From Ruditapes philippinarum (Eukaryota): a stretch of 64,000 nucleotides of DNA. The first letter of the stretch is position 1. Each line of letters begins with the position of its first letter. This document shows positions 7,119 to 63,061 of this stretch, in pieces. Location of the stretch: the NCBI RefSeq assembly GCF_026571515.1, contig NW_026857197.1, positions 1 through 64,000 of the forward strand, read 5' to 3'. A program made the translations under genes and the position numbers. The notes below the pieces were generated by a model, which saw nothing but the letters and a program-made list of their open reading frames with translations, was not told the origin of the DNA and ran no database searches.

Positions 7119-8806
7119 CACTACCCTCCATAAGTAAGTATACAGTGTGATATTTCATAAAAAAGTCAAAAAACAGCTCTTAAACTTAAACAAATACTTT
7201 ATTTGGCATTTAATTCATTTAATATCAAATTTGTTTGTTATTCATTGACAAATAAAAGTCTGCATAACAAGAACTTGGTCATTAAAGAACATTAAGAACT
7301 TTTTTAAAAGTCTGTATGCAAAATACCAATTCACGACATGAAGCAGCATTGCCAATAATTCATTTTCAATAACGTGTATAGCCTCCTTTGGAAGCAATAA
7401 CAGCCATCATTCTCTCTGGCATGCTTCTTATAAGTCTTTGACACCTCTCTACAGGTATTCTGTCCCAAGCATCCCTTAAATTGGCTTCCAACTCGGTTAG
7501 ATTTCTTGTCCTGTAGTCGTGAACACTGCATTTTAAATCATACCACAGATTTTCAAATGGATTAAAGTCAGGGCTTTGTGGTCATGCTCCTGCTTCCAGA
7601 CATTGACTATTCTGGCCCTGTGACATGGAGCCCCATCATCTTGGAAGAAGTAGGAGTCGCCATATCCAAGGTAGTGGGCAGAGGGGATTGCAACATTGCT
7701 CAAAATGTCAATGTATCCATGTGCATTCAAGTTACCGTGAATAGTATGGAGAAAACCTGGGCCTCTGTATGACATTGCACCCCACACAGTCACTCCACCA
7801 CCCCCAAACTTCACTGTTGGCACAACACAGTCATTGTGAAGCCTTTCAAAACCTCGCCCTGGACAAACACATTTCCATCATTTTGGAACAGAGTGAATCT
7901 GGACTCATCTGTCCAAAGAACAGCACTCCAGTCAACCCAAGTCCAATCAACATGCTCCTGAGCAAAGGCAATGCGCTTCTGGCAGTGAACTGGGGTCAAC
8001 AGAGGCTTCCTGACTGCCTTCCGTCCATGTAAACCAGCATCCTGTAATCTACGCCTTTCTGTGGTGAGGCTCGATGAGACTCCTTAGTTCTCCCATGAAT
8101 ATCTGAGGAAAGGCACAGTCTCCCGACGATCTCTGAGACTGAGTCTAATGATGGCTCTATCATCTCTCATATATGAAAGTCTAGGGTGCCCTGAACGAGG
8201 TCTTTCGGCCAGTCGTCCTGTCTCTTCCTTGCGCTCCAATGTCTTGTAAACTGTCTTCCTGTAAGAAATATTAAGACAAATATCAGGTCCATTTCTATAA
8301 AATTTGGTCAAGACATACATTTTAATTGGTAAAGTCATATAAAGAGTTAAAATTTAAGAAAAGACGCTTACCTGAAAACTCCAAGGACTCTTGCGATGGC
8401 AGTGACGCTCTCTCCATGTTGGTGACGGACCAGACATTCTACCCGCTGTTCTTCTGTCAAACGAACCATTTTATTGTTGTGTTTTATTGATGATTTTTGT
8501 CCAAAAATGTTATACTATTGTCATTTCACGCATTGATCATGTTGATTGTATGATTTGGATTGAATTTTTTTGACAAATCTCACTTTAAAAAAACTTGGTG
8601 AATTGAAAAGAATTGCCTCAAATTTAAATCAACGCATAATTTGTCTGAAAACGGTGGAACGGTGTGTTTTTATTCTCTCCCTTTTAATAAAGATTACTTG
8701 CATTACAGAATGAAGACAAAACAATTGAAATAATGTTAGCTATTAGCCCAAAATTTGACAAAAAGCATATTATTCATAAGTGTATACTTAATTATGGAGG
8801 GTAGTG
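7119..8806 (-). mobile_element. Tc1/mariner (DD34E-type) DNA transposon, full length but decayed
   Basis: 28-bp TIRs CACTACCCTCCATAAGTAAGTATACAGT / AGTGTATACTTAATTATGGAGGGTAGTG with TA on both flanks. Minus-strand transposase pieces: WTDESRF, KFGGGGVTVWG, FQDDGAPCH, QSPDFNPFENLW. Confidence 0.92.
7340..8469 (-). pseudogene. Tc1-like transposase pseudogene with one intron (8259-8371)
   Basis: ATG at 8469 gives MVRLTEEQRVECLVRHQHGESVTAIARVLGVF, which splices (GTAAG..TACAG) to RKTVYKTLERKEETGRLAERPRSGHPR. There is a premature stop at 8084-8086 and several downstream frameshifts. The 3' end coordinate is approximate. Confidence 0.85.
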
Positions 8807-11800: not shown

Positions 11801-13383
11801 GTTCTGTATTTTTGTAATGTAGATTTTGTACATTTCTAATCCTGTATATTTTTTTGTATATAATGTTGTTGTTTTTTTTACTTACAGGGCAATATGTCAT
11901 TTATCATATACATATCAAACATGAAATCATTTTTACTCTATCTACATACCTATATTGTATCATTTTTCTTAAAATTATGTATATATATAACATTCCAAAA
12001 ACTGCAAACTATTATACGATTGCAGTAATGAATTGTATGATGAAATACAGAAATAACTAAGCATATACTTGTTTTACTTTATATCAGGAACAAATGAGGA
12101 GACATTACGTTCTGTAACGTTAGCTTATTTAGATAATCAGGCTGCAGAATATCTAGGGTACCAGTAAGTATATAAATCTTTTTCCAAGATTGAAAGTTAC
12201 AAAAGACATAACGTATGTCTTGATGTAATAAAAAAGCAACCAAATCTGTACATTATCGAGACATGAGTGTGATGATATGAATGTTTGTGAACAAAACAAC
12301 AGACAGCAGTTACCTAGTTTTGTTTGATATAAATCTTTTTATATGCATTCTAGAATCACCATTGTAGGACATAGTATCGAGCGCAAACACCATGGTCTCA
12401 AAAGTCAGAGATCAAGGTCAGACTTGGAGGTCAGGAGAGAAACCTTGTCGGAGTAAAACACTTTCGTGCATTGCATGATTTTGATATATCACTTGGCACA
12501 AATGTTAACTTTTTTGACGGGGTGACATCAGAGCTTTTCAACAAAGACTGTACCTGTTGGGTAGCATGTTACTTGTTTAAAATGTCAAATTTGTTATTAC
12601 GACCTAGGTATCAGCGAATACATAGAATCTACATGTCATCTACATCTCTGGTAGCTAAAGATACTTCAGCGAACAGGTTTTATAGTTCTGCTTTACTGTC
12701 GCAACGTCAAAATAAAAGCGACATATAAAGTTATGGAAGCCAGAACTACATCTCTGGTATCAGTAACCCATTTATGGCAGAACAGTATTTACAACATTAT
12801 AAATAAACGCCGTAAACAATACTAAGTCTTATACAACAAATGTTCTATGCCATGCAGTACTTATTTCTCATTTTCAAAATTACAAACATGTAAATCTATT
12901 TAATTTTCATGAAAAAAAAACCCCTGAATGAGTGCTTAATTCTGTTTTAAATATTTGTATTAGATCAATACGTTTCAATTTATATAACTATAAATCGGTG
13001 ATCCACTTCTGAACGCACAATCATTTATATAGCGTTTGTAATTCGAGCCCTCTTCCTATTCATTTTTTAATGCGGGCTATGCGTTGATATAGCTGATAAC
13101 TCGTATAGTAAAGGTTGAATTGTATGGGTAGAAATAAAGCCTATAGAATAGATATAGTTAGTCCAAAAATAGAAATATTGAAAGATTTTATTGTTAAAAA
13201 ATCATGTACGCACCTGTAGACCTATTGTAAAATAATATGTGATTAACTTGTGTTTCAGGACTTTTGGATTTTAATTAAAAACGAGTGGTGGCAGTTTAGG
13301 AGTGGAAAACAATGACGAAAGGGGAAGCGAAAACATTCATGTTGTTTTGTTAAATAATAGATTTTATCTGCATAAGAAAAGAA

Positions 13384-14505
13384 ATGGAGGGTAAAAGGAT
13401 ATTAAAAGTAGTGGGAATTCTTACGATTTTAGCTGGTGGAATGTTTTATCTCAGCTCAGGCAGAAGTTTCACCTTACCTCGAATAAACCTAACAAAAGAT
13501 CCTCTTGTTCTTGAAGAAAAGACTTCGCAAACTAAAAATTCGACTCTAGTCTATATGCCATTTACTTTGAAAAAGCAGACGACAAACGGCACCTTTACGC
13601 CATCATCGCCGTGGCGATGGGCAGTTATTTCTATTGCAGTGACGCCAAAAATGTCAAAAGGTTATATATTTTGCCTTCCATTAACAGTAGCTGCCTGGAA
13701 ACGCATTGGCTGGCATACGATGATAATTATTACTGGAGAAATTGAACAATGGAAAAATTCTTCTATTCTTAATATAGTGAAGCAGACGACTCTTGATATA
13801 GACAATACCGCGCGTTTTATTATGATGCCCGTTACACACAATCCAGTATCGTATGCCCAAGTGTCGAGATCGTTCGTGGTCGCATTCGCCGATTGGTTAA
13901 ATCCTGACGACATTGTTATGACGTCAGATATAGACATCGTACCGTTAAAAGGCGAGTTTTACGATAAAGTTCGTGGAAACGAAATTTTCATTTTGAATGC
14001 GGATTGCTGTGGTTCTTTTCGTTGGAAAGACAAAACGGTAAGAATGCAGCCAATGACGTCAATCGGAATGAGCGCACAAAATTGGATACAAGTGATGAAT
14101 CTAACACCTCTACCAGAAAATCAACCATATTTTGTCTATGTCAATTCCTGGCTACTTAAATACTATGGAAGAAACGTAACTACGAAAAACGTGGCGAAAG
14201 GCGTCAATGAAAATTGGTATCTTGACCAGCGTGTAGTCTCTATTCAACTCCACATGACAAACATAAAACAAAACAAATTACGTCGGCAAACGTTCAGAGA
14301 TAGAGTTGACCGGGCGTTCAGTGGCTCGTGGACGAACTTCAAGTCGCACGTGGACGCGCATGTGTACCTCGACCCTCTCACGGGCAATCATTGGGATAAA
14401 ACGTTGTCGCTTATTACAGATGTCTTTCCTGGGGATGTTGCTGACAAGTTAAAGCAATTTAAAGACGATTTTGTCAAAGCCTTTGACGCACATGGAATGA
14501 CATAG
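13384..14505 (+). CDS. Uncharacterised type-II membrane protein, putative GT-A fold glycosyltransferase (DxD)
   Basis: 373-aa single-exon ORF with an N-terminal signal-anchor (ILKVVGILTILAGGMFYL), a T/S/P-rich stem, hydrophobic strand plus DxD (IVMTSDIDIVP), a later WYLDQ motif and a C-terminal DAH. A splice acceptor TTTCAG at ~13258 suggests an upstream UTR exon. Confidence 0.8.
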   Translation: MEGKRILKVVGILTILAGGMFYLSSGRSFTLPRINLTKDPLVLEEKTSQTKNSTLVYMPFTLKKQTTNGTFTPSSPWRWAVISIAVTPKMSKGYIFCLPLTVAAWKRIGWHTMIIITGEIEQWKNSSILNIVKQTTLDIDNTARFIMMPVTHNPVSYAQVSRSFVVAFADWLNPDDIVMTSDIDIVPLKGEFYDKVRGNEIFILNADCCGSFRWKDKTVRMQPMTSIGMSAQNWIQVMNLTPLPENQPYFVYVNSWLLKYYGRNVTTKNVAKGVNENWYLDQRVVSIQLHMTNIKQNKLRRQTFRDRVDRAFSGSWTNFKSHVDAHVYLDPLTGNHWDKTLSLITDVFPGDVADKLKQFKDDFVKAFDAHGMT

Positions 14506-15585: not shown

Positions 15586-17208
15586 CTAGCTGATAGGTTT
15601 GTTCAAATCCTTCATAAGATTAGGTCTATAAACACGCAGACGACCATCTTTAAAGGCTACCCAAAGGTCACCTGACCGATCGATATTCAAAACGTACGCG
15701 TCTTTAAGGTTCTTAAACACTGCAGTTTGTAAGTATTTTCCTTCTTCACTGAAAATGTGCACATTTGGTGTTACATTGCCGTCAAGGATAAAGACGTGAC
15801 GTTGATTTGAACACGCGATTCCAGTCGGACGAAAAGGTCCACATTTTGACGAGGTCGTGACGTCACGATTTATAGCCCCTTTCCAAATACCATTACTATC
15901 TAAGATAGTGACATTTGAGATATCGTCTGAGAAGAAAATGTCCCCAATATAGTTCAAGGTCAAATGCCTTGCTCGGTAAACCATCTTTGGATCAGGATGA
16001 ATAAGTTCCATCAAAATTGAACCGTGCCTGTCATATTTCATTATCTTTCCGGCGTCATGAAAAGCGACATATATATCAGAGTTACCGTCCTTGGTTACGC
16101 AAATGGCACTCGGTGTCTCAGTGACAGAGAAACATTTCAAAAATTTCCCATGCATTGTAACAGAATTAACCGATTTCTGAGTTAAGTAAAACAGAAGGCC
16201 ATATTGATCATTTGAAATATCAATAATGTTGTCCCTAACGGTCATAATGGTGGTAAAATGAATATTACAGCGTCCTTTATTGTTTCGTCTGCTGTCTAGA
16301 GTATAAACGAGAATGTATTCACCAAATGAGGCGTACAGTTGTGAAGCAGACGACAAAGACACTTTTGCAAGCTCGTCATCAAATGCTTTTTTCGGAATGG
16401 CTAACCTGGTGTCAAACATTCTAGAATATATTACTGGTTCAATTATTTCGTGATCAAAGGACACGGTACAGTTTTTATCGTAAAGATTTTCTGTATGCAA
16501 CTGCACAGCACCAAATACCGGAACTGTTTCAAGTTTTATCGTTACTAGTATTTCTTCACGCGGCCATTTTGGCTCGTGCAACGTCTCGACACTTGTGCGT
16601 AGTGAATTAAAAATCAGCAGAAGTTCCGCGTGACAAGCTGAATCCAGCTGACCTTGAATAAGATGAAGACCCGTCTCAACATCAAACAGTTGCTCCTTTA
16701 GAAATGACAATTTCTCGTCCATTGTGTCATAATATCTTTTTGACCTGGCAATGAGTCCGCCTTCAAACTCTTCCTCCGATGTGAAGAGTTTGTCCCTGTG
16801 TTTACTGGCATAACTCTCGTAGCGTCTCCTCGCATTCTCCACACGGTCGTGTAACCTAGTTTTGCTCTCACATATTTCTATTATTATTGCCTTGATTCTG
16901 GGAATAACTAAGCTTTTTCGAGTGTCCAACATTTTCTGAATGATTTTCCGTTTGTATTTTGCCGCGCGAATCAACGCATTTCGCCCTTTAATTTCGGTGC
17001 TGTGACGCGCATGCGCAGTGGTTTTGCATTTTTCACAGACAGGCTTCTCACAGAAACAGCAGTACAGGTTCACATTGCATGTAGAATGGGTTGGACACTG
17101 GAAAGGTCGGTCATATACATCTTGAATGCCAATGTCTGTCTCGGCTCCATATGAATACTGTGATTTCTTAGATTTTGACGAGTTCAAGTTCCGTCTAACT
17201 CGCGCCAT
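15586..17208 (-). CDS. TRIM-like B-box/coiled-coil/NHL beta-propeller protein (RING-less)
   Basis: 540-aa intronless ORF. B-box2 CPTH..LYCCFCEKPVCEKCKTTAHARH, a coiled-coil region, and NHL-like repeats (PSAICV..DIYVA, GDIFFSD, FRPTGIACSNQRHVFILD, GDLWVA). Confidence 0.85.
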   Translation of the reverse strand: MARVRRNLNSSKSKKSQYSYGAETDIGIQDVYDRPFQCPTHSTCNVNLYCCFCEKPVCEKCKTTAHARHSTEIKGRNALIRAAKYKRKIIQKMLDTRKSLVIPRIKAIIIEICESKTRLHDRVENARRRYESYASKHRDKLFTSEEEFEGGLIARSKRYYDTMDEKLSFLKEQLFDVETGLHLIQGQLDSACHAELLLIFNSLRTSVETLHEPKWPREEILVTIKLETVPVFGAVQLHTENLYDKNCTVSFDHEIIEPVIYSRMFDTRLAIPKKAFDDELAKVSLSSASQLYASFGEYILVYTLDSRRNNKGRCNIHFTTIMTVRDNIIDISNDQYGLLFYLTQKSVNSVTMHGKFLKCFSVTETPSAICVTKDGNSDIYVAFHDAGKIMKYDRHGSILMELIHPDPKMVYRARHLTLNYIGDIFFSDDISNVTILDSNGIWKGAINRDVTTSSKCGPFRPTGIACSNQRHVFILDGNVTPNVHIFSEEGKYLQTAVFKNLKDAYVLNIDRSGDLWVAFKDGRLRVYRPNLMKDLNKPIS

Positions 17209-22039: not shown

Positions 22040-34758
<12,719 letters not shown>

Positions 34759-36670: not shown

Positions 36671-39600
36671 TTTTTAGCTCACCTGTCACAAAGTGACAGG
36701 GTGAGCTTTTGTGATCGCTTTTCGTCCGGCGTCCGTCCGTCGTCCGTCCGTCCGTAAATTTTTACTTTAAATGACATCTCCTCATAAACCACTAAGCCAA
36801 TTTTATCCAAACTTCACAGGAATGTTCCTTTGGTGGTCACCTTTAAAAATTGTTCAAAGAATTTAATTCCATGCAGAACTCTGGTTGCCATGGCAACCGA
36901 AAGAAAAAACTTTAAATATCTTCTTTTAAAAAACCGTAAGAGCTAAAGCTTAGATATTTGGCATGAAACATCTTCTAGTGAGTGTCTACCAAGTTTGTTC
37001 AAATAAAAGCCCTGGGGTCAAAATTGGCCCCACCCCAGGAGGTCATTGATTTTCCCTATATACATATAGTAAAAACTTAAAAAATCTTCTTTTAAAGAAC
37101 CAAAAGAGCTACAGCTAAGATATTTAGCATGAAACATGTTCTAATGAATGTCTACCAAGTTTGTTCAAATAAAAGCCCCTGGGTCAAAATTGGCCCCGCC
37201 CCGGGGGGGTCATTGATTTTCCCTATATACATATAGTAAAAACGTAAAAAATCTTCTTTTAAAAAACCATAAGAGCTAGAGCTTAGATATTTGGCATGAA
37301 ACATCTTCTAGTGAGTGTCTACCAAGTTTGTTCAAATAAAAGTCCTTGGGTCAAAATTGGCCCCGCCCCGGGGGGTCATTGATTTTCCCTATATACATAT
37401 AGTAAAAACGTAAAAAATCTTCTTTTAAAAAACCATAAGAGCTAGAGCTTAGATATTTGGCATGAAACATCTTCTAGTGAGTGTCTACCAAGTTTGTTCA
37501 AATAAAAGCCCTGGGGTCAAAATTGGCCCCGCCCCGGGGGGTCATTGATTTTCCCTATATACATATAGTAAAAACTTAAAAAATCTTCTTTTAAAGAACC
37601 AAAAGAGCTACAGCTAAGATATTTAGCATGAAACATGTACTAATAAGTGTCTACCAAGTTTAATCAAATAAAAGCCCTGGGGTCAAAATTGGCCCCGCCC
37701 CGGGGGGTCATTGATTTTCCCTATATGCATATAGTAAAAACTTAAAAAATCTTCTTTTAAAGAACTCAAAGAGCTATGGCTAAGATATTTAGCATCAAAC
37801 ATGTTCTAATAAGTGTCTACCAAGTTTGTTCAAATAAAAGCCCTGGGGTCAAAATTGGCCCCGCCCCAGGGGGGTCATTGATTTTCCCTATATGCATATA
37901 GTAAAAACTTAAAAAATCTTCTTTTAAAGAACCAAAAGACCTAGAGCTAAGATTTTTAGCATGAAACATGTTCTAATAGGTGTCTACCAAGTTTGTTCAA
38001 ATAAAAGCCCTGGGGTCAAAATTGGCCCCGCCCCGGGGGGTCATTGATTTTCCCTATATGCATATAGTAAAAACTTAAGAAATCTTCTTTTAAAGAACCG
38101 AAAAGGGCTAGAGCTAAGATATTTAGCATGGAACATGTTCTAATGGGTGTCTTCCAAGTTTGTTCAAATAAAAGCCCTGGGGTCAAAATTGGCCCCGCCC
38201 CGGGGGGATCATTGATTTTCCCTATATGCATATAGTAAAAACTTAAAAAAATCTTCTTTTAAAGAACTCAAAGAGCTATGGCTAAGATATTGAGCATCAA
38301 ACATGTTCTAATAGGTGTCTACCAAGTTTGTTCAAATAAAAGCCCTGGGGTCAAAATTGGCCCCACCCCAGGGGGTCATTGATTTTTCCTATATGCATAT
38401 AGTAAAAACTTAAAAAATCTTCTTTTAAAGAACCAAAAGAGTTAAACCTAAGATATTTAGCATGAAACATGTACTAATAAGTGTCTACCACGTTTGTTCA
38501 AATAAAAGCCCTGGGGTCAAAATTGACCCCACCCCAGGGGGTCATTGATTTTTCCTATATGCATATAGTAAAAACTTAAAAAATCTTCTTTTAAAGAACC
38601 AAAAGAGTTAGAGCTAAGATATTTAGCATGAAACATGTTCTAATAAGTGTCTACCAAGTTTGTTCAAATAAAAGCCCTGGGGTCAAAATTGGCCCCGCCC
38701 CGGGGGGTCATTGATTTTCCCTATATGCATATAGTAAAAGCTTAAAAAATCTTCTTTTTAAGAACTCAAAGAGCTATGGCTAAGATATTTAGCATCAAAC
38801 ATGTTCTTATAAGTGTCTACCAAGTTTGTTCAAATAAAAGCCCTTGGGTCAAAATTGGCCCCGCCCCAGGGGGTCATTGATTTTCCCTATATGCATATAG
38901 TAAAAACTTAAAAAATCTTCTTTTAAAGAACCAAATGAGCTAGAGCTAAGATTTTTAGCATGAAACATGTTCTAATAGGTGTCTACCAAGTTTGTTCAAA
39001 TAAAAGCCCTGGGGTCAAAATTGGCCCCACCCCAGTGGGTCATTGATTTTCCCTATATGCATATAGTAAAAACTTAAGAAATCTTCTTTTAAAGAACCAA
39101 AAGAGTTAAAGCTAAGATATTTAGCATGAAACATGTACTAATAAGTGTCTACCAAGTTTGTTCAAATAAAAGCCCTGGGGTCAAAATTGGCCCCGCCAAG
39201 GGGGGGTCATTGATTTTCCCTATATGCATATAGTAAAAGCTTAAAAAATCTTCTTTTTAAGAACTCAAAGAGCTATGGCTAAGATATTTAGCATCAAACA
39301 TGTTCTTATAAGTGTCTACCAAGTTTGTTCAAATAAAAGCCCTTGGGTCAAAATTGGCCCCGCCCCAGGGGGTCATTGATTTTCCCTATATGCATATAGT
39401 AAAAACTTAAAAAATCTTCTTTTAAAGAACCAAAAGAGCTAGAGCTAAGATTTTTAGCATGAAACATGTTCTAATAAGTGTCTACCAAGTTTGTTCAAAT
39501 AAAAGCCCTGGGGTCAAAATTGGCCCCGCCCCGGGGGGTCATTGATTTTCCCTATATGCATATAGTAAAAACTTAAGAAATCTTCTTTTAAAGAACCAAA

Positions 39601-41098
39601 AGAGCTAGAGCTAAGATATTTAGCATGAAACATGTTCTAATGGGTGTCTACCAAGTTTGTTCAAATAAAAGCCCTGGGGTCAAAATTGGCCCCGCCCCGG
39701 GGGGTCATTGATTTTCCCTATATGCATATAGTAAAAACTTAAAAAATCTTCTTTTAAAGAACTCAAAGAGCTATGGCTAAGATATTGAGCATCAAACATG
39801 TTCTAATAGGTGTCTACCAAGTTTGTTCAAATAAAAGCCCTGGGGTCAAAATTGGCCCCACCCCAGGGGGTCATTGATTTTCCCTATATGCATATAGTAA
39901 AAACTTAAAAAATCTTCTTTTAAAGAACCAAAAGAGTTAGAGCTAAGATATTTAGCATCAAACATGTTCTAATAGGTGTCTACCAAGTTTGTTCAAATAA
40001 AAGCCCTGGGGTCAAAATTGGCCCCACCCCAGGGGGTCATTGATTTTCCCTATATGCATATAGTAAAAACTTAAAAAATCTTCTTTTAAAGAACCAAAAG
40101 AGTTAGAGCTAAGATATTTAGCATGAAACATGTTCTAATAAGTGTCTACCAAGTTTGTTCAAATAAAAGCCCTTGGGTCAAAATTGGCCCCGCCCCGGGG
40201 GGTCATTGATTTTTCCTATATGCATATAGTAAAAACTTAAAAAATCTTCTTTTAAAGTACCAAAAGAGTTAAAGCTAAGATATTTAGCATGAAACATGTA
40301 CTAATAAGTGTCTACCAAGTTTGTTCAAATAAAATCCCTGGGGTCAAAATTGGCCCCGCCCCGGGGGGATCATTGATTTTCCCTATATGCATATAGTAAA
40401 AACTTAAAAAATCTTCTTTTAAAGAACTCAAAGAGCTATGGCTAAGATATTTAGCATCAAACATGTTCTAATAGGTGTCTACCAAGTTTGTTCAAATAAA
40501 AGCCCTGGGGTCAAAATTGGCACCGCCCCGGGGGTCATTGATTTTCCTTATATGTGTATAGCAAAAACTTAAAAAATCTTCTTTGAAAAAAACCAAATAG
40601 CTAGAGTTAAGATATTAAGCATGAAACATCTTTTAGTGAGTGTCTACAAAGTTTGTTCAAATAAAAGACCTGGGGTCAAAATTGGCCCCGCCCCGGGGGT
40701 CATTGATTTTCTTTATATGTGTATAGCAAAAACTTAAAAATCTTCTTTGAAAAAACCCAAATAGCTAGAGTTTAGATATTAAGCATGAAACATCTTCTAG
40801 TAAGTGTCTACAAAGTTTGTTCAAATAAAAGCCCTGGGGTCAAAACTGGTCCGGCCCCAGGGGTGTCATTGTTTTTAACTATATGTGTATAGTAAAAACT
40901 TAAAAAAAATCTTCTTTCAAAAAGCCCAATGAGCTAGAGCTTAGATGTTTAGCATGAAAACATCTTCTTATGGGTGTCTACCGAGTTTGTGCAAATAAAA
41001 GCCCTTGGGTTAAATTGGCCCTGCAACGTTGGGGGGGGGGGGGGGGTTGGGGGCCTATATACAGGTGAGCGACCTCTGGGCCATCATGGCCCTCTTGT
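36671..41098 (+). mobile_element. Helentron/HINE element, same family as 29822-31647, with ~25 x 166-bp array
   Basis: Termini are essentially identical to the TTC38-intron copy. The array spans ~36850-41020. Confidence 0.9.
36850..41020. repeat. 166-bp satellite-like tandem array
   Basis: AAATAAAAGCCCTGGGGTCAAAATTGGCCCC recurs about every 166 bp (e.g. 39497, 39663). 25 occurrences were counted by eye. Confidence 0.95.
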
Positions 41099-45561: not shown

Positions 45562-45707
45562 GCTAGGCGGTGGCTTATCTAAACTTGATATAAAAAATAT
45601 CTAATATTAGGCATAAAATCTTCATATCATCCCTCTCTGTTATGTACCATAATTTATACAAAAGGGAACATTCTCTATTAATGGACTTTACATTATGATA
45701 ATTCCAG

Positions 45708-48700
45708 GTTTTCCGGGGTCAAGAACGCTTGATATTAAAGCAGCAATCAATGAAACAACAATGACAACCTCTACAACAGTAAATGTAACAGAGAGCGAGC
45801 AACCAAAGACAACCGCTACTACAACAATAAATGTAACAGAGAGTAAGCGACCAATGACCACCGCTACAGTAAATGTAACAGAGAGCGAGCGACCAATGAC
45901 AACCGCTACTACGACAGTAAATGTAACAGAGAGTGAGCGACCAATGACAACCGCTACTACAACAGTAAATGTAACAGAGAGTGAGCGACCAATGACAACC
46001 GCTACTACAACAGTAAATGTAACAGAGAGTGAGCGACCAATGACAACCGCTACTACAACAATAAATGTAACAGAGAGTGAGCGACCAATGACAACCGCTA
46101 CTACAACAGTAAATGTAACAGAGAGTGAGCGACCAATGACAACCGCTACTACAGCAGTAAATGAAACAGAGAGTGAGCGACCAATGACCACCACTACTAC
46201 GAGTACTACCTCTATTACAACAGAAAATGTAACAGAGAGCGATTTAGCTAATACAACCTCTTCTACAACAATAAATGAAACTGAGCGCGAGCTACCAAAG
46301 ATTGAAACCGCTACTACGACAAAGGATGTAAAAGACAGCGAGATACCAATGACAACCGCTACTACGAAACATAATGAAGCAGAGAGCGAGCGACCAATGA
46401 CAACCGCTACTACGACAGTAAATGTAAAAGAGAGTGAGCATCCAAAGACAACCGCTACTACAACAATAAATGTCACAGAGAGTAAGCGACCAATGACCAC
46501 CGCTACTACAACAGTAAATGTAACAGAGAGCGAGCGACCAATGACAACCGCTACTACGACAGTAAATGTATCAGAGAGTGAGCGACCAATGACCACCGCT
46601 ACTACAACAGTAAATGTAACAGAGAGCGAGCGACCAATGACAACCGCTACTACGACAGTAAATGTAACAGAGAGTGAGCGACCAATGACCACCGCTACTA
46701 CAACAATAAATGTAACAGAGAGCGAGCGACCAATGACAACCGCTACTACAACAATAAATGTAACAGAGAGTGAGCGACCAATGACAACCGCTACTACAAC
46801 AGTAAATGTAACCGAGAGTGAGCGACCAATGACAACCACTACTACGAGTACTACCTCTAGTACAACAGAAAATGTAACAGAGAGCGATTTAGCTAATACA
46901 ACCTCTTCTACAACAATAAATAAAACTAAGCGCGAGCTACCAAAGATTGAAACCGCTACTACGACAAAGGATGTAAAAGACAGCGAGGTACCAATGACAA
47001 CCACTACTACGAAACATAGTGAAGCAGAGAGCGAGCGACCAATGACAACCGCTACCACGACAGTAAATGTAAAAGAGAGTGAGCGACCAATGACAACCGC
47101 TACTACAACAGTAAATGTAACAGAGAGTGAGCGACCGATGACAACCGCTGCTACAACAATAAATGTAACAGAGAGTGAGCGACCAATGACAACCGCTACT
47201 AGAATAGTAAATATAACAGCGAGTGAGCGACCAATGACAACCGCTACTACGACAGTAAATGTAACAGAGAGTGAGCGAACAATGACAACCGCTACTACAA
47301 CAATAAATGTAACAGAGAGTGAGCGACCAATGGCAACCGGTACTACAACAGTAAATGTAACAGAGAGTGAGCGACCAATGACCACCGCTACTACAACATT
47401 AAATGCTACAGAGAATCAGCGACCAATGACAACCGCTACTACAGCAGTAAATGTAACAGAGAGCGAGCGACCAATGACAACCTCTTACAACAGTAAATGT
47501 AACAGAGAGTGAGCGACCAATGACCACCGCTACTACGACAGTAAATGTAACAGAGAGCGAGCGACCAATGACAACCGCTACTACGACAGTAAATGTAACA
47601 GAGAGCGAGCGACCAATGACAACCGCTACTACAACAGTAAATGTAACAGAGAGCGAGCGACCAATGACAACCGCTACTACGACAGTAAATGTAACAAAGA
47701 GCGAGCGACCAATGACAACCGCTACTACCACAGTAAATGTAACAGAGAATGAGCGACCAATGACAACCGCTACTACAACAGTAAATGTAACAGAGAGTCT
47801 GCGACCAATGACCACCGCTACTACAACAATAAATGTAGCAGAGAGTGAGCGACAAATGACAACCGCTACTACAACAATAAATGTAACAGAGAGTGAGCGA
47901 CCAAAGACAACCGCTACTATGAACAATAATGAAGCAGAGAGCGAGCGACCAATGACAACCGCTACTACAACAATAAATGTAACAGAGAGTAAGCGACCAA
48001 TGACAACCGCTACTACAACAGTAAATGTAACAGAGAGTGAGCGACCAATGACAACCGCTTCTACGACAGTAAATGTAACAGAGAGTGAGCGACCAATGAC
48101 AACCGCTACTACGACAGTAAATGTAACAGAGAGCGAGCGACCAATGACAACCGCTGCTACAACAGTAAATGAAACAGAGAGTGAGCGACCAATGACCACC
48201 GCTACTACGACAGAAAATGTAACAGAGAGCGAGCGACAAATGACAACTGCTACTACGACAGTAAATGTAACAGAGAGCGAGCGACCAATGACAACCGCTG
48301 CTACGACAGTAAATGTAACACAAAGCGAGCGACCAATGATAACCGATATGACGACTACTACTTCTGCTACGACAGAAAATGTAACAGAGAGAGCGTTACC
48401 AAATGCAACCTCTTCCACAAATATTTTCACAGAAAGTGAGCGACCAAAGCCATCCTCTAATTCAAGTTTTACAGAACCACCAGGCGTTATCGCAGTTGTC
48501 ATTTCCATAGTTTATAATTGGTTTTTTTCTTCAGATGAAAATGAAAGAAGTTCAAAAACGACAGAAAATGTAACAGAGAGCGAGTTACCAAATACATCCT
48601 CTAAAACAGTAAATATATCGCAGAGCGAGCGACCAAAGACTGTAACCGCTACTACGGCAAAGAATGTAACAGAGAGCGAGCGACCAATTACAACCGCTAC

Positions 48701-49887
48701 TACGGCAAAGAATGTAACAGAGAGCAAGCGACCAATTACAACCGCTTCTTTGACAGGAAATGTAACAGAGAGCGAGCGACCAATGACAAGCACTTCTTTG
48801 ACTACTACGACAGAAAATGTTACAGAGAGCGAGTTACAAAATACAACCTCTTCTACAAATATTTTCACAGAAAGTGAGCGACCAAATACATCCTCTAATT
48901 CAAGTTCTAACCTCTCAAAACTAACAACAAAAGCAAGGGCTGTAACTTCCACTAAATCAATATTTACGAGAGTTGAGCCACCTGGTACGAAGGTAGTGGG
49001 GGAAATCGGAGTGGATCTGCAGGCACTCAAGTTACTTTTAACTTTTTTATTAACATACTGTGTGTCATTCTCGCAATGGCATATTGTTAGTGAATATACA
49101 AATTGTAGTATAACTTCAGCAATCATCAGCGAATGCTTCAATTTTATGCTTTTAATCATTTCATTTGATAGAATACCGACACTGAATTTCTATTGTATAA
49201 TAAAGGAATAAACTACTTACTAAATTCTAAAATTTTCTAGTCGAGTAATTCGGCTGCAAAGCAGCCAGGTCTTATATGATTTGAATAAGACGCATTATTT
49301 ATTGCGGAATGACATGATTAATTTTGCGAGTCGTCGATAAAAACACGAGTACATAAAACTATTAAAATTTCACCTTTACACCTTATGACCAATTTTTAAT
49401 TTCTGGCTTTGTTGCAAAACATTTCAACATTTTCTTCAAAAGGAAATACAATGATTTTACTATCCCCGTGTACAAATAACGGACTGTGTCTGTAGTTTAC
49501 CGAGATTTGATATCGTTAAACCAGGCATAAATTAAATCAATCGAAAGTTTCGCATTCGGACAAAACGCATCAGTGTAAGAGCTGTTGCATTGCACTGTCA
49601 TCAAACATCTGAATCTGTTCAATATATCCATTTCTTGACTTTTAGAAACTAGGAAGTAGGTTCATTTTTGAAGAAATTTATCTTTTAAAGTTTTAGAGAT
49701 TATTTGGATAGTGCTGCGAGGTTTCAGAAACTTAAATAAACACATAGGTTAAATATAAAGTAAAGCGAGGTTACACATCTATACTGTTTTGTTTTGGTTA
49801 GATTTGGTAATTATAATGGGTCTGATGCTTTTAATGTCTTTATACTACGTTTACTTTGGTGTTTTATCGATTGTCATTTGCTTATAA
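45708..49887 (+). CDS. Thr-rich mucin-like membrane-tethered glycoprotein (repeat exon(s) plus hydrophobic last exon; frameshift near 47484)
   Basis: Acceptor TTCCAG|45708 opens a 48-nt repeat encoding ESERPMTTATTTVNVT. Donor CCTG|GTACGA at 48984 joins in phase 1 to GTTAG|49802-49887, which encodes DLVIIMGLMLLMSLYYVYFGVLSIVICL*. A possible signal-peptide exon is 43557-43596 (MIHCYWCLLIVMT, weak GC donor). Confidence 0.7.
45750..48900 (+). repeat. 48-bp coding VNTR of the mucin
   Basis: Dozens of copies of GAGAGTGAGCGACCAATGACAACCGCTACTACAACAGTAAATGTAACA. A variant block (ESDLANTTSS..KDVKDSE..KHNEAE) is duplicated ~650 bp apart. Confidence 0.95.
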
Positions 49888-51225: not shown

Positions 51226-51812
51226 TTGCATGACCATGATTAGCAAAAGCAAACCAAATTTAAGAGCTAAAGCTATTGTAAAAATAATACTATGACCACA
51301 GCAGATTTCGTACAGAAAAGTTTTACTGATCTTTTTGCCAATCAGTACATCTGCTAAATGCTGGTATTCGTAGTACCCCTTACATCCGGATTTTTATGGA
51401 AAATGCCGAAAAGTAAGGATAGACCTCTTGGAGAATTCTTCTAAATGTGTTTAGTACATGTGTGAAACTTCACAAACATTTTACGGACATGTCGGATGAT
51501 ATGACGGGGGTTAATAAACGCCGAAAGAGCTTGTAAAATTAACAGAAGATAGAAAAGTTCGGGGAAATTTGGGGAGGCATGCGTTAAACGTTCTCATTAA
51601 TGAAAAGAAAACACAGCATCAATACAGTATATTGTTTATGTACATAATCATATAAAAGAAACCAAAAGATCTACCGGATATACATGTAGCAATTTCAGCA
51701 TTTTTCCTGGAAAATAGAAATTATAGAATTTGTTAAGTTAAACTGACATTTGAATCGACAAGTGGTTCGATTTTTAAAAATAAAGAGAATATATAAATAC
51801 AATTAATTAATT

Positions 51813-51875
51813 AATTGGATTGATTGGTTGATTGGTTTATTGGTTGGTTGATTTATTGATTGATTGATTGATTGA
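51813..51875. repeat. (ATTG/GTTG)n microsatellite
   Basis: Imperfect tetranucleotide run just 3' of the Cvsi-like gene. Confidence 0.85.
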
Positions 51876-52004
51876 TCTGTTCATGTTCAATTTCTTTCAA
51901 ATAAAACATTTCGAACAACATGCAGAATTTAGAAAATAAAGTATCAAGTATTTTTAATTGGTGTCAGGACTTGTTTTAATTTGTTATAAAGATAAATACC
52001 TGAT

Positions 52005-53580
52005 TTAATAACACGTGCATATATTGTCCACACAGTGCCAGCTCTGGTATCGGTTTGGACATCTTTTACCCAGGTTTAAACAATCGTCACGTGTCTGACA
52101 TCCTACGGAGTACAATAATGGAAATCAAAAAATGTACATTGTATCAGCAAATATTGAGCGTTTGCAGAGGCAATAATAGAAAGTTTCAATAATATGGATA
52201 CAACATTTTAGCCATCAAAGAACTGCAATATTAGTCTTAAGTTTCTCTCCACCTCCCTCCCATTCCCCAGGTTCCCTAGTAACAGATGGTCAGTATAGTA
52301 ACCAATGGGCCGTACTTCTAAAACTATAGTCCGTAGAAACCTAGGTTTGGAACCAATGTACAACTATGTAAAACGTGTCAAGATCAGCAGTTCATTCGTT
52401 AGCCAGATAATCGTGACCATTATTTAGTTTTATAAAAGGTTGCCCCGTAAATTCACTTCATGCTTGCAGTATTGTTATATTTTTCTGGTCCTTTGGGATC
52501 ATTGATTCCAGCAGTATAAAGTGTTGAGAATAGAGTACCGCTCAAGCGAGTGCTAGGAGGCGTGAATGGTGTAGCAATATTCCATTAATCATGTACAGAC
52601 TCAATCAAACCGGGTCTGCATTTTTCATGTAATTTTGTTGTGATTAATGCTTCGGAGGGATCGCTTTGTTTCCGGATTATTATATACACTGCTGCTATCA
52701 AATTTTGAAGAAATATCTTCTTTTTTTCTCCAGCCGTATTATAAATTCGTTATTAAGATTGTTTATAGGTTATATTGCCATATATAAATGGTGGTTTGTA
52801 TGTACGAGTAACCGTTTATAAATATAGAGCCATATAACGTACCAAAAATCTTTATAATAACTAATAATATAAACAAACAACAAAAGATTCACTTTTACAT
52901 ATAATTAGCTTCTTTTGCTGACTTAATAAGACTGTCCTTCTAAACATAATGGAAATATTTTAATTGTAACGTACTGTCTGGTATTGGTGAGCACGTGCAC
53001 TCCTGGCGTTCACAGATAAGATTACTTCCGTTAGCACACAATGTTATCTGGCAGTCCATTGGTCCAACGCAGCGTTCTGCGTATATAACTGAAAACAACA
53101 CGACAGTAGCTAGAATTATTGTCTAGATAAAACAGTTGTTTAAAAGTAATTGCAAATTAAATTACATGTACAATTATGTAAAATTTATCAAGCTTTACAC
53201 GAGTTTATAGTGCACAAATCATTTTAAAACCCCTGTCAGAGGCAACATTCCCGCTTACGGATGGGGCATAACATGTGTTATTTTGGCGCCACAAAATAAA
53301 ACTATATGGTGCCAGGTAACAACAATGATATGGATCCGCGGGAACAGGGAGAAGAAATCATTCAACGGATTTATATTACAAAATCGGGCTGGAGTTTCAA
53401 CTAAACAACTGACTTGCGCATTATTAGTCATATTAAAAATCCCTTATCGGACACTTCATGGAAGTAATGCAATTGTTTTATTTGATAATAAAATGTCGAG
53501 CATTTCATGACAGTAAACAACAAAAGTCAATACTTACGGACAGCGGCAAAAGCCAGCACTGCTGCGATGACGATTTTCAT
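52005..53580 (-). CDS. Secreted 12-Cys serine protease inhibitor, Cvsi-1/Cvsi-2-like (MEROPS I84), 84 aa, 3 exons
   Basis: Exons 53580-53538, 53088-52975 and 52102-52005, with phase-1 introns GTAAGT..TTTCAG and GTACGT..CCGTAG. Protein: [84 protein letters not shown]. It has a signal peptide and two 6-Cys modules ending in CTC, plus the HCVD motif. Confidence 0.88.
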
Positions 53581-53599
53581 TCTTAAATGTTCTTGTACG

Positions 53600-53640
53600 A
53601 AATGAGACACTCCGTTACATTGCCAGCTATTTATTCATTG
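53600..53640 (-). promoter_or_regulatory. Candidate TATA/Inr core promoter of the Cvsi-like gene
   Basis: On the minus strand, AATAAATAG lies ~25-30 nt upstream of TCATTT, which lies ~20 nt before the ATG. Confidence 0.35.
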
Positions 53641-54191
53641 AAACTTTGTGAAGTAATGTTATTTCATACAAAGCTATAATGCAAAGTTATACAACACATA
53701 TCAGGAATATAATCTTGCTTATACAATCATATACAATACTTTGCAACTATACCATGAAATTATGTTCGTTTGTGATAAGTCACACCTATACGAATAAGAT
53801 CTCGGGTTATCATTAGTGGGCTGCATCAATAAGTTGGCACAACTATTCTTTTATTTGGGGACCATGCATGATACGAAAGGGTCATAATGCATATTTCATT
53901 ATCATACGTACAGACGTACAGACACATCTTCGGATGTATCTAAAGTTATGTTTATGTTCTACTTCAGTCGTCGTTATGGAGCGTAAACGATATAAGGCGG
54001 TAACCATTGTTAAGGAGCGTAGACTTTTAACAGTTCGTGAACAGGCTCTGCAACAGCTATAAGTTTCTGATTTTAGGCGTTATTAAAGGTTTCCGTATAT
54101 ATTTATCTATACAAACTGATATGGCTGACATTAGTAACAAGAATGTGGGAATCATTTGTACGTTTCCTGATATGACACCAGTACTGGTTAA

Positions 54192-59236: not shown

Positions 59237-62200
59237 CTATGTAATTTTAAATCTTTCTCGACGCTTTATTATCCATTCTGCATTAGGATTCACTTTATAC
59301 AGTGTTAACATATTTGTGTTGTGTGGTAAACAGCGTTCACCAATGTTGCCGCCCACTTCAAACAGGAACGTGTCATCCCCAGCGGACTGGTAATTTCTCG
59401 GATCATTGTAGATAGGTCCATGTTGTGTTTTCCCGACATCAGAGTTTTCATTTCTGAAAGAAACATTAACTTTAAATTGGCCATGGAGGTACAGAGTCAA
59501 GACTTTAATATAAAAATACAGTAAAAATATTTTCTGTTTCATAATCCTTATTTCATTAAAAATGACAAAAAGTATCTTAGTTTATACTCTTAATCAAATT
59601 TGTATATTGGACATGGCATGCTTTAAAATTGAAAAAATGCATCAAGAGTTTGAGGGAATAAATCAGTATCAATATTTTCAAACTGTGTACAGTCTGACCA
59701 GATGGAGCAAGCTGACATGGCTCTATAACTAGTGATAAAACAATGTCAATATTACTACCTTTAACACAGGTAAGATTAACCACATTATTTTCCATTTCTA
59801 TGCCATAAAATTACTAACCCAGCATTTGCTGAACCCTGAATGACCTTGAACTTGGCTACAACATCTCCTGCTGTCATATTGTTGTCCAGCTGTAGAGCAG
59901 TACTGCTCTTGGTCAGGTTAGGAGCTTGAATCCGTATCACACCATCCTGAAAGTCTGCCTATAAATAGAAATTATGCCTATAAATAAAAATCTTTAAATA
60001 GTAATTATGCCTATAAATAGACTTCCTCATCTGTCTATGCATAGATATCATACCTGTAAACAAATCCTGCTATAATGATATAAAACGTCTGGGTATAAAA
60101 TTAATACAAAGCTTGCCTATATACAGTCAAACCTGTAATGTCACCTCTCTCCAGTGGTCATCTGACCTGAACTGCCATTTTGTAACATGCTCAAAGAAAA
60201 TTGCTCTACTTTATACATTTGTACAGTGGTCACTTGCTGCCCGCGGTCAAAAGCCACTAAAACTGTTTTCCGAATCTGAAGCTTGGCTGTTTTAAGCAGT
60301 TAGCGAAGTTTGAAACAGCCAGACTATCTGCTGCTTTTTTTCAAAGATGACAGGAATCAGAGATTAACAAAAACTACATGTCGCGTGCCTGATATAAACA
60401 CCGGTCACAAAGAAATTTGCATAATGGCACATCCCAGTCATCGTTATAACAAATGAACAATTCTGATTGGATTATCTGCATGCACTTGTATATAAATAGA
60501 AAATTTACCTATTAGGGAAAATACATTCAACATGATAAATCAATATCACCATTCAACACAATAGATTTCTTTAGTTATTTTTGATGTCACATTGTCTTAA
60601 TCTTTGAAATAATGGCATCATTTGATGGCAATTCTAGCAAGTTAATTTGATGCCAATTCTATCAAGTTGAACATTTCACATCATCTGGCAGTAGAACAGC
60701 ATGCTTGACTATTCTCAGTACTTGATAGTAAAACAAAAACCTGGATGATGTAGAATTTTCTAAGTTCAAAAAGGGCCATAATTATGCCTTGGATAGTGCC
60801 GTCCTGTTATGCTCTAAAGTAAATATGTGGAGTGCCCTCTGTTATACCCTCAAATAAACGTGTGAAGTTTAAACACATATTCCCTTCAGTTGTGTTGGAG
60901 AAAACAACCTGCATGCAAAACTTTACCAAAGTGTGACAGCAACACCAATACCTTTGTGAGTACAGTAGCTCTCCCTTTATTCTTTGAATAGTCAAGCTTA
61001 AAACACAAAGATCTGTTCATTGAAACTTATACTTGGTAAATGAGCCTAATACGTCATGAATATATCTAATCTTGATATTAAGAATTACTTGTGAGCTGTT
61101 TAAAAATTATTTGTTTTAATAGTATAATTGTATACCTCATGTTTTAATGCTGGTTTTTTGTATACTTCACTCTTGTCTTTCTTTGATAACAAACCCTTCA
61201 TTTTCTGTAAATATAAAATCAATTTTAATATGCTGCTGATCTCCAGTGAGTAAACGATTTTAAAAAATCCCAAACTATACAAAAAAACATAAATAAAATA
61301 TGATACATGTATTGACAATACATCGATGGTCACACAGTCATGTGGTAAACACAACCAAAGTTATCACATTGATCACCCTTATGAGAGGGTATTATTTTTT
61401 TATGGGTTTTATGTCACACAAATACTGTAAAAGTCATAAGGCAAATTTCAAGCTTTACCTCTATGTGCAAATATTTCAGGCACAAATAGGCACCCCGAGT
61501 TAAGAACCAACCAATGATGTTACGTAAGCTTGCTGGCTAGCTTCCCCACATGAAATAATCTAGACGTCCCTAGCATTTGAAACCACAGTGGTTTTGGGGT
61601 TAAAATGGACTGAAGGCTTAAACCTCTTGGCTTCAGGTGTCACTCAAATTTTAAGAAGTTTGAAAAATATTTTGACTTACTTTATCACAGTGAATAATAA
61701 CATTATGACATTTTTTCTGCTTGCGGCAGATCACAAAATGTCACATTGTATTGGCACAATATTTATGCAATGCATTTGTATTGTATCATATCATACTAAC
61801 ATAAGTCATTTAGCTATTTTTAGACAAATGAAAGAAATGCTTACGCTTTTATTATCCTTGTTTTTACGAAGAGTTTCAAGTTCATACGTTCTTCTTACCA
61901 AGGACATGAGGTAGGTGGGAACCTACAAATACAAACATAAAATTACATATTGCACATGTGTAATAGAACAGTGACAATTTAAAATAGTTAACTACATAAG
62001 AAAAGAACTAGGTGATGTTCCCCAAATAGTTTTCGAACACAGAGAAGTCGTTTCTTGTTGATATCTCTCATAGTTGCAAAGTTTAAAGAGCACATTTTGA
62101 CATAATTACCAATGAAATTCACATGTAAAATGCAAATTTTTTCCAGTGTACAGTTAAAATTATTCCCTCCTTCAGTCTTATCACTTAAGTTTTTACAGTA

Positions 62201-63061
62201 ACTATAATCACTCTAAAAGTTTGTATTATATAATAACTTACTGTCCACAATATACCCCTATAGCGTATCAACATCTTCATAATATTAGAGGTATTAGCTG
62301 CCATTTTGATTTCAATATCCCAAACTGCCTTGTTCTTGGCAGGATTAGAGCCCCGTACTTTAGGTGCCATGAATAAATTAGGTGCCATTATCATGGCTAC
62401 ATTGTTTAAACTCATTTTATTGGTGTCCTTTTGTTCTATCACTCTTTCCAGGAACTCCAGTAATACCTGAAACATGTAAGTGCCAATAAAGTACCAATGT
62501 ATCAGCCTTAATAGTCTTCCGGCACTAGCCTAGCAATTTAGATTGGAATAGAAAGTACTTAAAAATTGTTTAAAAGCATACATTATGAATACAACAGTAT
62601 TTTGTACATGTGCAACATGATAAAAGTTCTATGTCAGTTTTACAATATTTAAAACATTAAAATTTTTATGTCTAACTGTACAATATGTAAAACGTGAAAA
62701 ATTTATGTCTCCTGAAAAATATGTGAAACATTATTCATTTCTGTCTGATGAAAATATGTGGTAGGTGAAAAATGTATGTCTATGAACAGTATGTGAAACA
62801 TTATTTATTTCTGTCTACTGTGCAATATTATACAATTATTGACTAGTGTGCCATTGAATATGATGTGATATTCACCGGCAGATGTCATATTGACCGGCAG
62901 ATGTCATATTGACCGAGGCAATAGCAGAGGTTTATTTTTTTTTATTTTTTTTTTTTTCCAAAATATTTTCATACTCACATTAAGTGTGTCTCTATGTACA
63001 GTAGGTAATAGTAGAATAAGGAGATTCAAAGCATGTAACTGTTGTTTCTTGTCCGGCAAGT
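59237..63061 (-). CDS. ARHGAP18: Rho GTPase-activating protein of the ARHGAP18/28/40 (conundrum) group, last 6 coding exons
   Basis: Exons 63061-62979, 62466-62242, 61922-61845, 61204-61136, 59958-59819 and 59453-59237 are GT-AG and phase-consistent. Motifs: ALNLLILLLPTVHRDTL, NKMSLNNVAMIMAPNLF, GVIRIQAP, LFEVGGNIGERCL..VNPNAEWIIK. The symbol indicates the family, not strict orthology. Confidence 0.9.

What the first reader, a model, noticed from the sequence alone, without database searches (positions are those of the whole stretch)
52005..53580. Hidden 3-exon secreted 12-cysteine Cvsi-like (I84) protease inhibitor gene missed by the ORF track
Seen: three short exons with strong splice sites assemble into an 84-aa peptide with a clean signal sequence and two 6-Cys modules, each encoded by its own phase-1 exon. 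Known: oyster cvSI-1/cvSI-2 (MEROPS I84) are 12-Cys plasma inhibitors of subtilisin-type pathogen proteases. Inference: an immune effector whose two-module architecture arose by exon duplication. Small genes like this are easily left unannotated.
Basis: partly seen in the sequence, partly recalled or inferred. Interest (0 to 1): 0.7.

Follow-up and report, generated by a model that had tools for sequence, protein, structure and literature searches.

The report
Already-annotated clam I84 protease inhibitor gene
This is a real, spliced clam gene for a small 12-cysteine protein of the known mollusc I84 family, already listed in RefSeq, which is likely secreted and likely blocks microbial subtilisin-type proteases; it is an ordinary member of a large gene family.

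Summary
Three coding exons on the minus strand (53580-53538, 53088-52975, 52102-52005), joined by two phase-1 GT..AG introns, give an 84-aa peptide with 12 Cys that fits the published I84 array exactly. RNA contigs from three studies carry the junctions.

The gene is not hidden. [quoted passage not shown] The three-coding-exon layout with six Cys per exon is already published for the family. The genome holds at least 31 related module-1 exons on 22 contigs.

One correction: the transcript has a fourth, non-coding exon. A 293-nt intron starts 5 nt after the stop codon.

Exon duplication is plausible but unproven. The two module profiles match beyond their Cys pattern (0 and 2 of 200 shuffles reach the score), but the DNA shows no trace. 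Both modules also weakly resemble plant NCR peptides and short scorpion-toxin folds.

Protease inhibition by this paralogue is inferred from family membership only. Verdict: already known, low interest.

The parts
53538..53580 (-). Coding part of exon 1 (43 nt): start codon and most of the hydrophobic signal-like segment
   Evidence: joined to exon 2 in RNA contigs X5, X9, X12
53581..53788 (-). 5' untranslated part of exon 1; contigs end at 53606 (X5), 53616 (X6) and 53788 (X12), so the true start is not fixed
   Evidence: contigs cannot show a start
53089..53537 (-). Intron 1, 449 nt, GT..AG, phase 1
52975..53088 (-). Exon 2 (114 nt, phase 1-1): end of the signal-like segment, module 1 (Cys1-6, ending C-T-C) and the linker
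52103..52974 (-). Intron 2, 872 nt, GT..AG, phase 1
52465..52700 (.). High-copy genomic repeat inside intron 2; it accounts for nearly all reads laid on the stretch and is not part of the mRNA
   Evidence: 3421 candidates, scored ones 85-88% identical; depth 10^4-10^5 against about 125 on the flanks in X15
52000..52102 (-). Exon 3: module 2 (Cys7-12, with the invariant His-Cys), stop codon at 52007-52005, then 5 nt of 3' UTR
51707..51999 (-).
   Evidence: loose ends of X1 and X9 contigs at 51999 equal window 51676-51705 over the 30 letters shown
51626..51706 (-). Exon 4, non-coding; start fixed at 51706, end not fixed (81 further nt in the X9 contig, 279 in X1, of which 30 were seen and matched)

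Best explanation
This spliced four-exon gene encodes an 84-residue, 12-cysteine member of the mollusc I84 (Cvsi) family that is likely secreted and likely acts as a tight-binding inhibitor of subtilisin-type serine proteases of microbes and parasites. Shown: exon structure, splicing, Cys array, likeness to bivalve Cvsi-like proteins, and an existing RefSeq entry. Inferred: the N-terminal ~18 residues are cut off (hydrophobic core, conserved Glu19 after small residues), leaving an acidic peptide of about 66 aa and 7.5 kDa. Also inferred: each exon-encoded module folds on its own as a short helix or turn plus a beta-hairpin held by three disulfides, and an exposed loop of one module would sit in the protease active site. 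The reactive loop was not located. Expression is likely tissue-restricted, as in razor clam (digestive gland, per PMC9198434), which would explain the two raw-read runs without junction reads.
For: Identical to XP_060594705.1 'Cvsi-2-like'. Fits the published array CX5-8CX4-5CX7-9CX4CTCX6-23CX5-7CX3-6CX5-8CX4CXC (PMC9198434). Two phase-1 introns and six Cys in each of exons 2 and 3, as published. Of 32 phmmer hits at E<=1e-3, 27 (self included) are small proteins of this kind. Of 20 clusters looked up, 15 have a member named Cvsi-1/2-like, and every species named is a bivalve. All 12 Cys are found in 28 of 28 aligned relatives; His75 is invariant. Mature mass 7.5 kDa and pI 5.63 lie within the published 7.1-9.3 kDa and 4.98-6.11. 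AlphaFold2 gives a signal-like helix at 2-18 and two hairpin modules, mean pLDDT 78.5.
Against: No activity data exist here for this paralogue. By PMC9198434, activity rests on purified oyster cvSI-1/2 and on bulk plasma. The characterised cvSI-1/2 sequences were not among the hits I could name, so no direct alignment to them was made. 'Cvsi-2-like' is an automatic name. Identity to relatives is only 31-42%. With at least 31 related loci in the genome, some may have other targets. Two raw-read RNA runs show no junction reads. Model pTM is only 0.41.
Confidence: 0.65

Rival explanations
1. It is an I84 family member by descent but has shifted target: it inhibits the clam's own digestive or haemolymph serine proteases rather than those of pathogens.
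For: Razor clam I84 genes are expressed mainly in digestive gland and hardly in gill, and tandem copies diverge in expression (PMC9198434). Loop residues between the Cys vary widely.
Against: The same paper reports induction by pathogens and selectivity for subtilisin-type enzymes in the characterised members. A Cvsi-2-like transcript is LPS-induced in Manila clam hepatopancreas (PMC7430831); it was not shown to be this gene.
Confidence: 0.15
2. Each module is a defensin / short-scorpion-toxin-like (CS-alpha-beta-type) unit, and this paralogue acts directly as an antimicrobial or receptor/channel-binding peptide rather than as a protease inhibitor.
For: Family profiles weakly match NCR13 (E 0.0085 whole, 0.0017 for module 1) and short K-channel toxins (E 0.36-0.93). 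Pfam Nodulin_late hits 13 of 28 members and Toxin_2 hits 3 of 28 at E<=0.5. Best Foldseek row for module 2 alone is hongotoxin, TM 0.59, rmsd 2.8 A. One Mytilus relative is auto-named alpha-KTx-like.
Against: No fold match is significant (best E 0.47 and 2.3; VIA Z 2.3 at best, none >=2 for module 2). The standard three-residue Cys spacing of the cysteine-stabilised helix (PMC5116183) is not met: spacing is 4 and 6. There is no GXC before the fourth Cys of either module. The mature peptide is acidic (pI 5.63), unlike most such antimicrobials (recalled).
Confidence: 0.12
3. It is a weakly expressed, near-redundant copy with little present function.
For: No junction reads in two raw-read runs. 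Razor clam has barely expressed and broken copies.
Against: Intact frame, all 12 Cys, canonical splice sites and spliced contigs from three studies. The three coding-exon variants whose places I read are two synonymous and one conservative (53045, 53063, 53086).
Confidence: 0.08

Closest known systems
[quoted passage not shown]
   Same: Identical, 84 of 84 residues.
   Different: Nothing at protein level. Whether the RefSeq mRNA model includes the 3'-UTR exon could not be seen.
MEROPS family I84 (oyster cvSI-1/2/3; razor clam scSI-1 to 14, PMC9198434)
   Same: Signal-like N-terminus, 12-Cys array with C-T-C, acidic 7-9 kDa mature peptide, two phase-1 introns, six Cys per exon, multigene family.
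   Different: A fourth, non-coding exon (the paper reports three exons and two introns). Mature length about 66 aa against 67-89 in razor clam. No tandem neighbour in the window or among the hits on its contig. Activity untested.
Legume NCR peptides (NCR13; Pfam PF07127) and EB modules (PF01683)
   Same: Weak profile and fold likeness per module.
   Different: Plant single-module peptides. The protein itself has no Pfam hit; Atlas scores of 0.76 are within chance range.
Short scorpion K-channel toxins / CS-alpha-beta superfamily
   Same: Six Cys ending C-x4-C-x-C, short helix plus beta-hairpin in the model.
   Different: Cys2-Cys3 spacing is 4 and 6 rather than 3, no GXC, acidic, two modules; all matches non-significant.

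Membership tests
MEROPS I84 (Cvsi) | 12 conserved Cys in the published array, with C-T-C at Cys5-6 | tested here: met
MEROPS I84 (Cvsi) | N-terminal signal peptide of 17-19 aa | tested here: met
   Hydropathy 2.1-3.5 over the first 12 windows, helix 2-18, Glu19 in 27 of 28; no dedicated predictor was available, cleavage site inferred
MEROPS I84 (Cvsi) | Mature peptide of about 70 aa, 7-9 kDa, acidic | tested here: met
   66 aa, 7548 Da, pI 5.63 for a cut after residue 18
MEROPS I84 (Cvsi) | Three coding exons, two phase-1 introns, six Cys in each of exons 2 and 3 | tested here: met
   against PMC9198434; one extra intron lies in the 3' UTR
MEROPS I84 (Cvsi) | Sequence likeness to family members in other molluscs | tested here: met
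   15 of 20 looked-up clusters have a member named Cvsi-1/2-like; best non-self family hit E 3.4e-9
MEROPS I84 (Cvsi) | Direct alignment to the characterised type peptides cvSI-1 / cvSI-2 | not tested
   Those accessions were not among the hits that could be named
MEROPS I84 (Cvsi) | Inhibition of subtilisin-type serine proteases | not testable with these tools
   needs a bench assay
MEROPS I84 (Cvsi) | Six intramolecular disulfides | not testable with these tools
   The folding tool returns no coordinates; the paper itself calls the disulfides speculated
CS-alpha-beta (scorpion-toxin-like / defensin) superfamily | Three residues between the two helix cysteines, one between the two strand cysteines | tested here: not met
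   Spacing 4 (module 1) and 6 (module 2); the C-x-C half is met. Four of 28 relatives have 3 in module 2 and one in module 1
CS-alpha-beta (scorpion-toxin-like / defensin) superfamily | Fold match to solved members | tested here: inconclusive
   such peptides recur among weak rows, none significant
CS-alpha-beta (scorpion-toxin-like / defensin) superfamily | gamma-core GXC before the hairpin (common, not required) | tested here: not met
   No Gly two places before the fourth Cys of either module

The most novel reading that the evidence does not exclude
I84 inhibitors are a tandem pair of defensin / short-scorpion-toxin-like modules, made by duplicating one phase-1 exon and repurposed as protease inhibitors. 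That would give the family, which has no solved relative in my sequence search, a fold and an origin among invertebrate defence peptides, and some of the 30-plus clam paralogues might keep direct antimicrobial activity.
Probability: 0.25. Interest if true: 0.45.

Novelty: already known. Interest (0 to 1): 0.12.

Why it matters
For this gene, little: it is one annotated paralogue in a described immune gene family. Two by-products have modest use. The genome holds at least 31 related loci (a lower bound that may include uncollapsed alleles) against 14 reported for razor clam, which bears on breeding for disease resistance. And the fold and reactive site of I84 remain open: no solved relative turned up, and none of the listings from my literature searches named a structure. 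That library lacks most subscription journals, where the primary cvSI papers sit.

Tried and rejected
Complex prediction with subtilisin BPN': no verdict, the pair was not folded, so binding and the reactive loop stay open.

Pfam: no family for the whole protein at E<=10; single exons gave only sub-threshold CUT_C, Nodulin_late and EB. PDB by sequence: two chance hits. Fold searches: no significant match for the whole model or for module 2; this shows neither a new fold nor a different one. ESM Atlas: best 0.76, within the chance range.

Recent exon duplication: rejected, DNA of module 1 against module 2 scores no better than Cys-fixed codon shuffles (622 of 1000 reach it). Tandem cluster in the window: none by motif scan or tblastn.

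High read depth at 52465-52700 was considered as expression and rejected: it is a genomic repeat. Five long or repetitive phmmer hits (P0002, P0008, P0022, P0023, P0032) were dropped as Cys/repeat noise. P0004, P0025 and P0026 were left out of alignment A2 for odd length or module number.

Pacifastin link: PMC13388995 only cites the cvSI papers; its text has no 'cvSI' or 'I84'. Literature one search was too loose (57,840 papers) to show anything. Earlier scan findings: none by sequence or by words.

Full report
Observation. On the minus strand, exons at 53580-53538 (43 nt), 53088-52975 (114 nt) and 52102-52005 (98 nt) join into a 255-nt frame for 84 residues with 12 Cys spaced 5,4,7,4,1,6,5,6,8,4,1. 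The introns are 449 and 872 nt, GT..AG, both phase 1. The two six-Cys patterns occur once and twice in the window and in none of 40 block shuffles.

Splicing. I laid 8 of 24 listed runs. The exon 2/3 junction is in four (X5, X6, X9, X12) and the exon 1/2 junction in three (X5, X9, X12), from three studies. One X5 contig carries all three coding exons. X6 and X9 are RNA on record; X5 and X12 are guessed RNA. X15 passes the introns unspliced, as DNA would. The raw-read runs X21 and X23 gave no junction reads in the 4 and 6 in 100 that were read, so expression is low or tissue-restricted there. Nearly all reads on the stretch come from a high-copy repeat in intron 2.

A fourth exon. Contigs of X1 and X9 leave the window at 51999, and the 30 loose letters shown equal window 51676-51705. 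This defines a 293-nt GT..AG intron (51999-51707) that opens 5 nt after the stop codon. X5 and X6 contigs also run on 78 and 85 nt beyond that point, letters not shown. An intron this close to the stop would not be expected to trigger nonsense-mediated decay (established rule, recalled).

Identity. A search with exon 2 returned one protein, P0001. [quoted passage not shown] The gene is therefore annotated; a plain ORF scan misses it only because it is spliced.

Family. A full phmmer scan gave 32 hits at E<=0.001. Of these, 27 including self are small proteins of this kind and 5 are repeat noise. Of 20 clusters looked up, 15 have a member named Cvsi-1/2-like; all named species are bivalves. In 28 aligned sequences (31-42% identity to ours) all 12 Cys are present in 28 of 28, with His75 in 28, Glu19 and Thr46 in 27 and Asp78 in 26. 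PMC9198434 (parts 1-4 of 6 read, abstract through discussion; supplements not opened) gives the I84 array, which our peptide matches. It also reports three exons, two phase-1 introns and six Cys per exon for all 14 razor clam genes. The characterised cvSI-1/2 were not among the named hits, so membership rests on the published array, the gene structure and auto-named relatives.

Genome context. Four protein searches of G000 fetched 59 loci. A motif scan gave 52 hits. After dropping one spurious hit and moving two from module 2 to module 1 by eye, 31 module-1 exons on 22 contigs remain, several in tandem. This is a lower bound and may include uncollapsed alleles. This gene has no neighbour of its kind in the window or among the hits on its contig.

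Exon duplication. Exon 2 is symmetric (phase 1-1), which allows it. Module 1 and module 2 profiles align with probability 83-84% and score 22. With Cys columns fixed and the others shuffled, 0 of 200 reached that score in one test, in which 7 of 28 module-1 rows carried an extra upstream Cys. In a cleaner test on exon alignments, 2 of 200 did. The DNA shows nothing (622 of 1000). One relative, P0026, has three modules, so modules do duplicate in this family. Against a simple reading, module 1 matches plant NCR13 at E 0.0017, so the shared features may be generic to small disulfide hairpins. PMC9198434 stresses that the two modules differ. I put ancient duplication at about 60%.

Structure. AlphaFold2 gives a helix at 2-18 and two hairpin modules (pLDDT 78.5, pTM 0.41); module 2 alone reaches pLDDT 86.3. 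No fold search was significant, though short scorpion toxins and NCR13 recur among the weak rows. [quoted passage not shown]

Mechanism. Most likely the signal segment is removed and an acidic, disulfide-locked peptide of about 7.5 kDa is released into gut or plasma, where it binds subtilisin-type proteases of microbes. This is inferred from cvSI-1/2 as summarised in PMC9198434 and PMC9892467 (passages only); the primary papers were not read. PMC7430831 (passages only) lists an LPS-induced Cvsi-2-like transcript in Manila clam, not shown to be this gene. PMC13388995 (passages only) adds nothing on I84.

Verdict. A real gene, correctly read by the first stage, but an already-annotated member of a described family. 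Interest 0.12.

Noticed in passing
window 52465-52700: High-copy repeat in intron 2: 3421 candidates genome-wide, some in tandem at about 280-nt spacing (e.g. G000:C8920), and very abundant in RNA runs.
   Followed up: partly
window 51999-52501, run X1: A 780-nt contig has intron 3 spliced but keeps 400 nt of intron 2 up to the repeat: partly processed RNA, or a transcript starting in the repeat.
   Followed up: no
G000:C656, C13585, C7617, C506, C7835, C3774, C11176, C13742: Tandem groups of I84 paralogues; near-identical sets on C656, C13585, C681 and C12862 may be alleles or a recent expansion.
   Followed up: partly
L002 (G000:C14138:116348-119446): Closest paralogue in module 1 (52% identity); its module 2 has a His/Gly-rich insert between Cys9 and Cys10, as do two Mytilus relatives; possible metal binding, untested.
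   Followed up: no
P0026: A 133-aa relative with three six-Cys modules (module 2 repeated), source not looked up.
   Followed up: no
window 45653-49208 (+): Thr-rich mucin-like coding tandem repeat, 48-nt unit, about 53 copies, split over two long frames.
   Followed up: no
window 15589-17208 (-): Single 540-aa frame with a B-box zinc finger, TRIM-like.
   Followed up: partly
window 59240-62529 (-): Exons of a RhoGAP gene with a RHG40-like C-terminal domain, the nearest recognised upstream neighbour.
   Followed up: partly
window 13354-14502 (+): 383-aa open frame with an N-terminal membrane-anchor-like segment and no Pfam match at E<=0.01; not identified.
   Followed up: partly
window 906-2171 (+) and 7536-8083 (-): Carboxylesterase-family exons and a broken Tc1/Tc3-type transposase fragment.
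   Followed up: no
window 36905-41021 and 30064-31251: 166-nt satellite arrays of about 25 and 7 copies.
   Followed up: no
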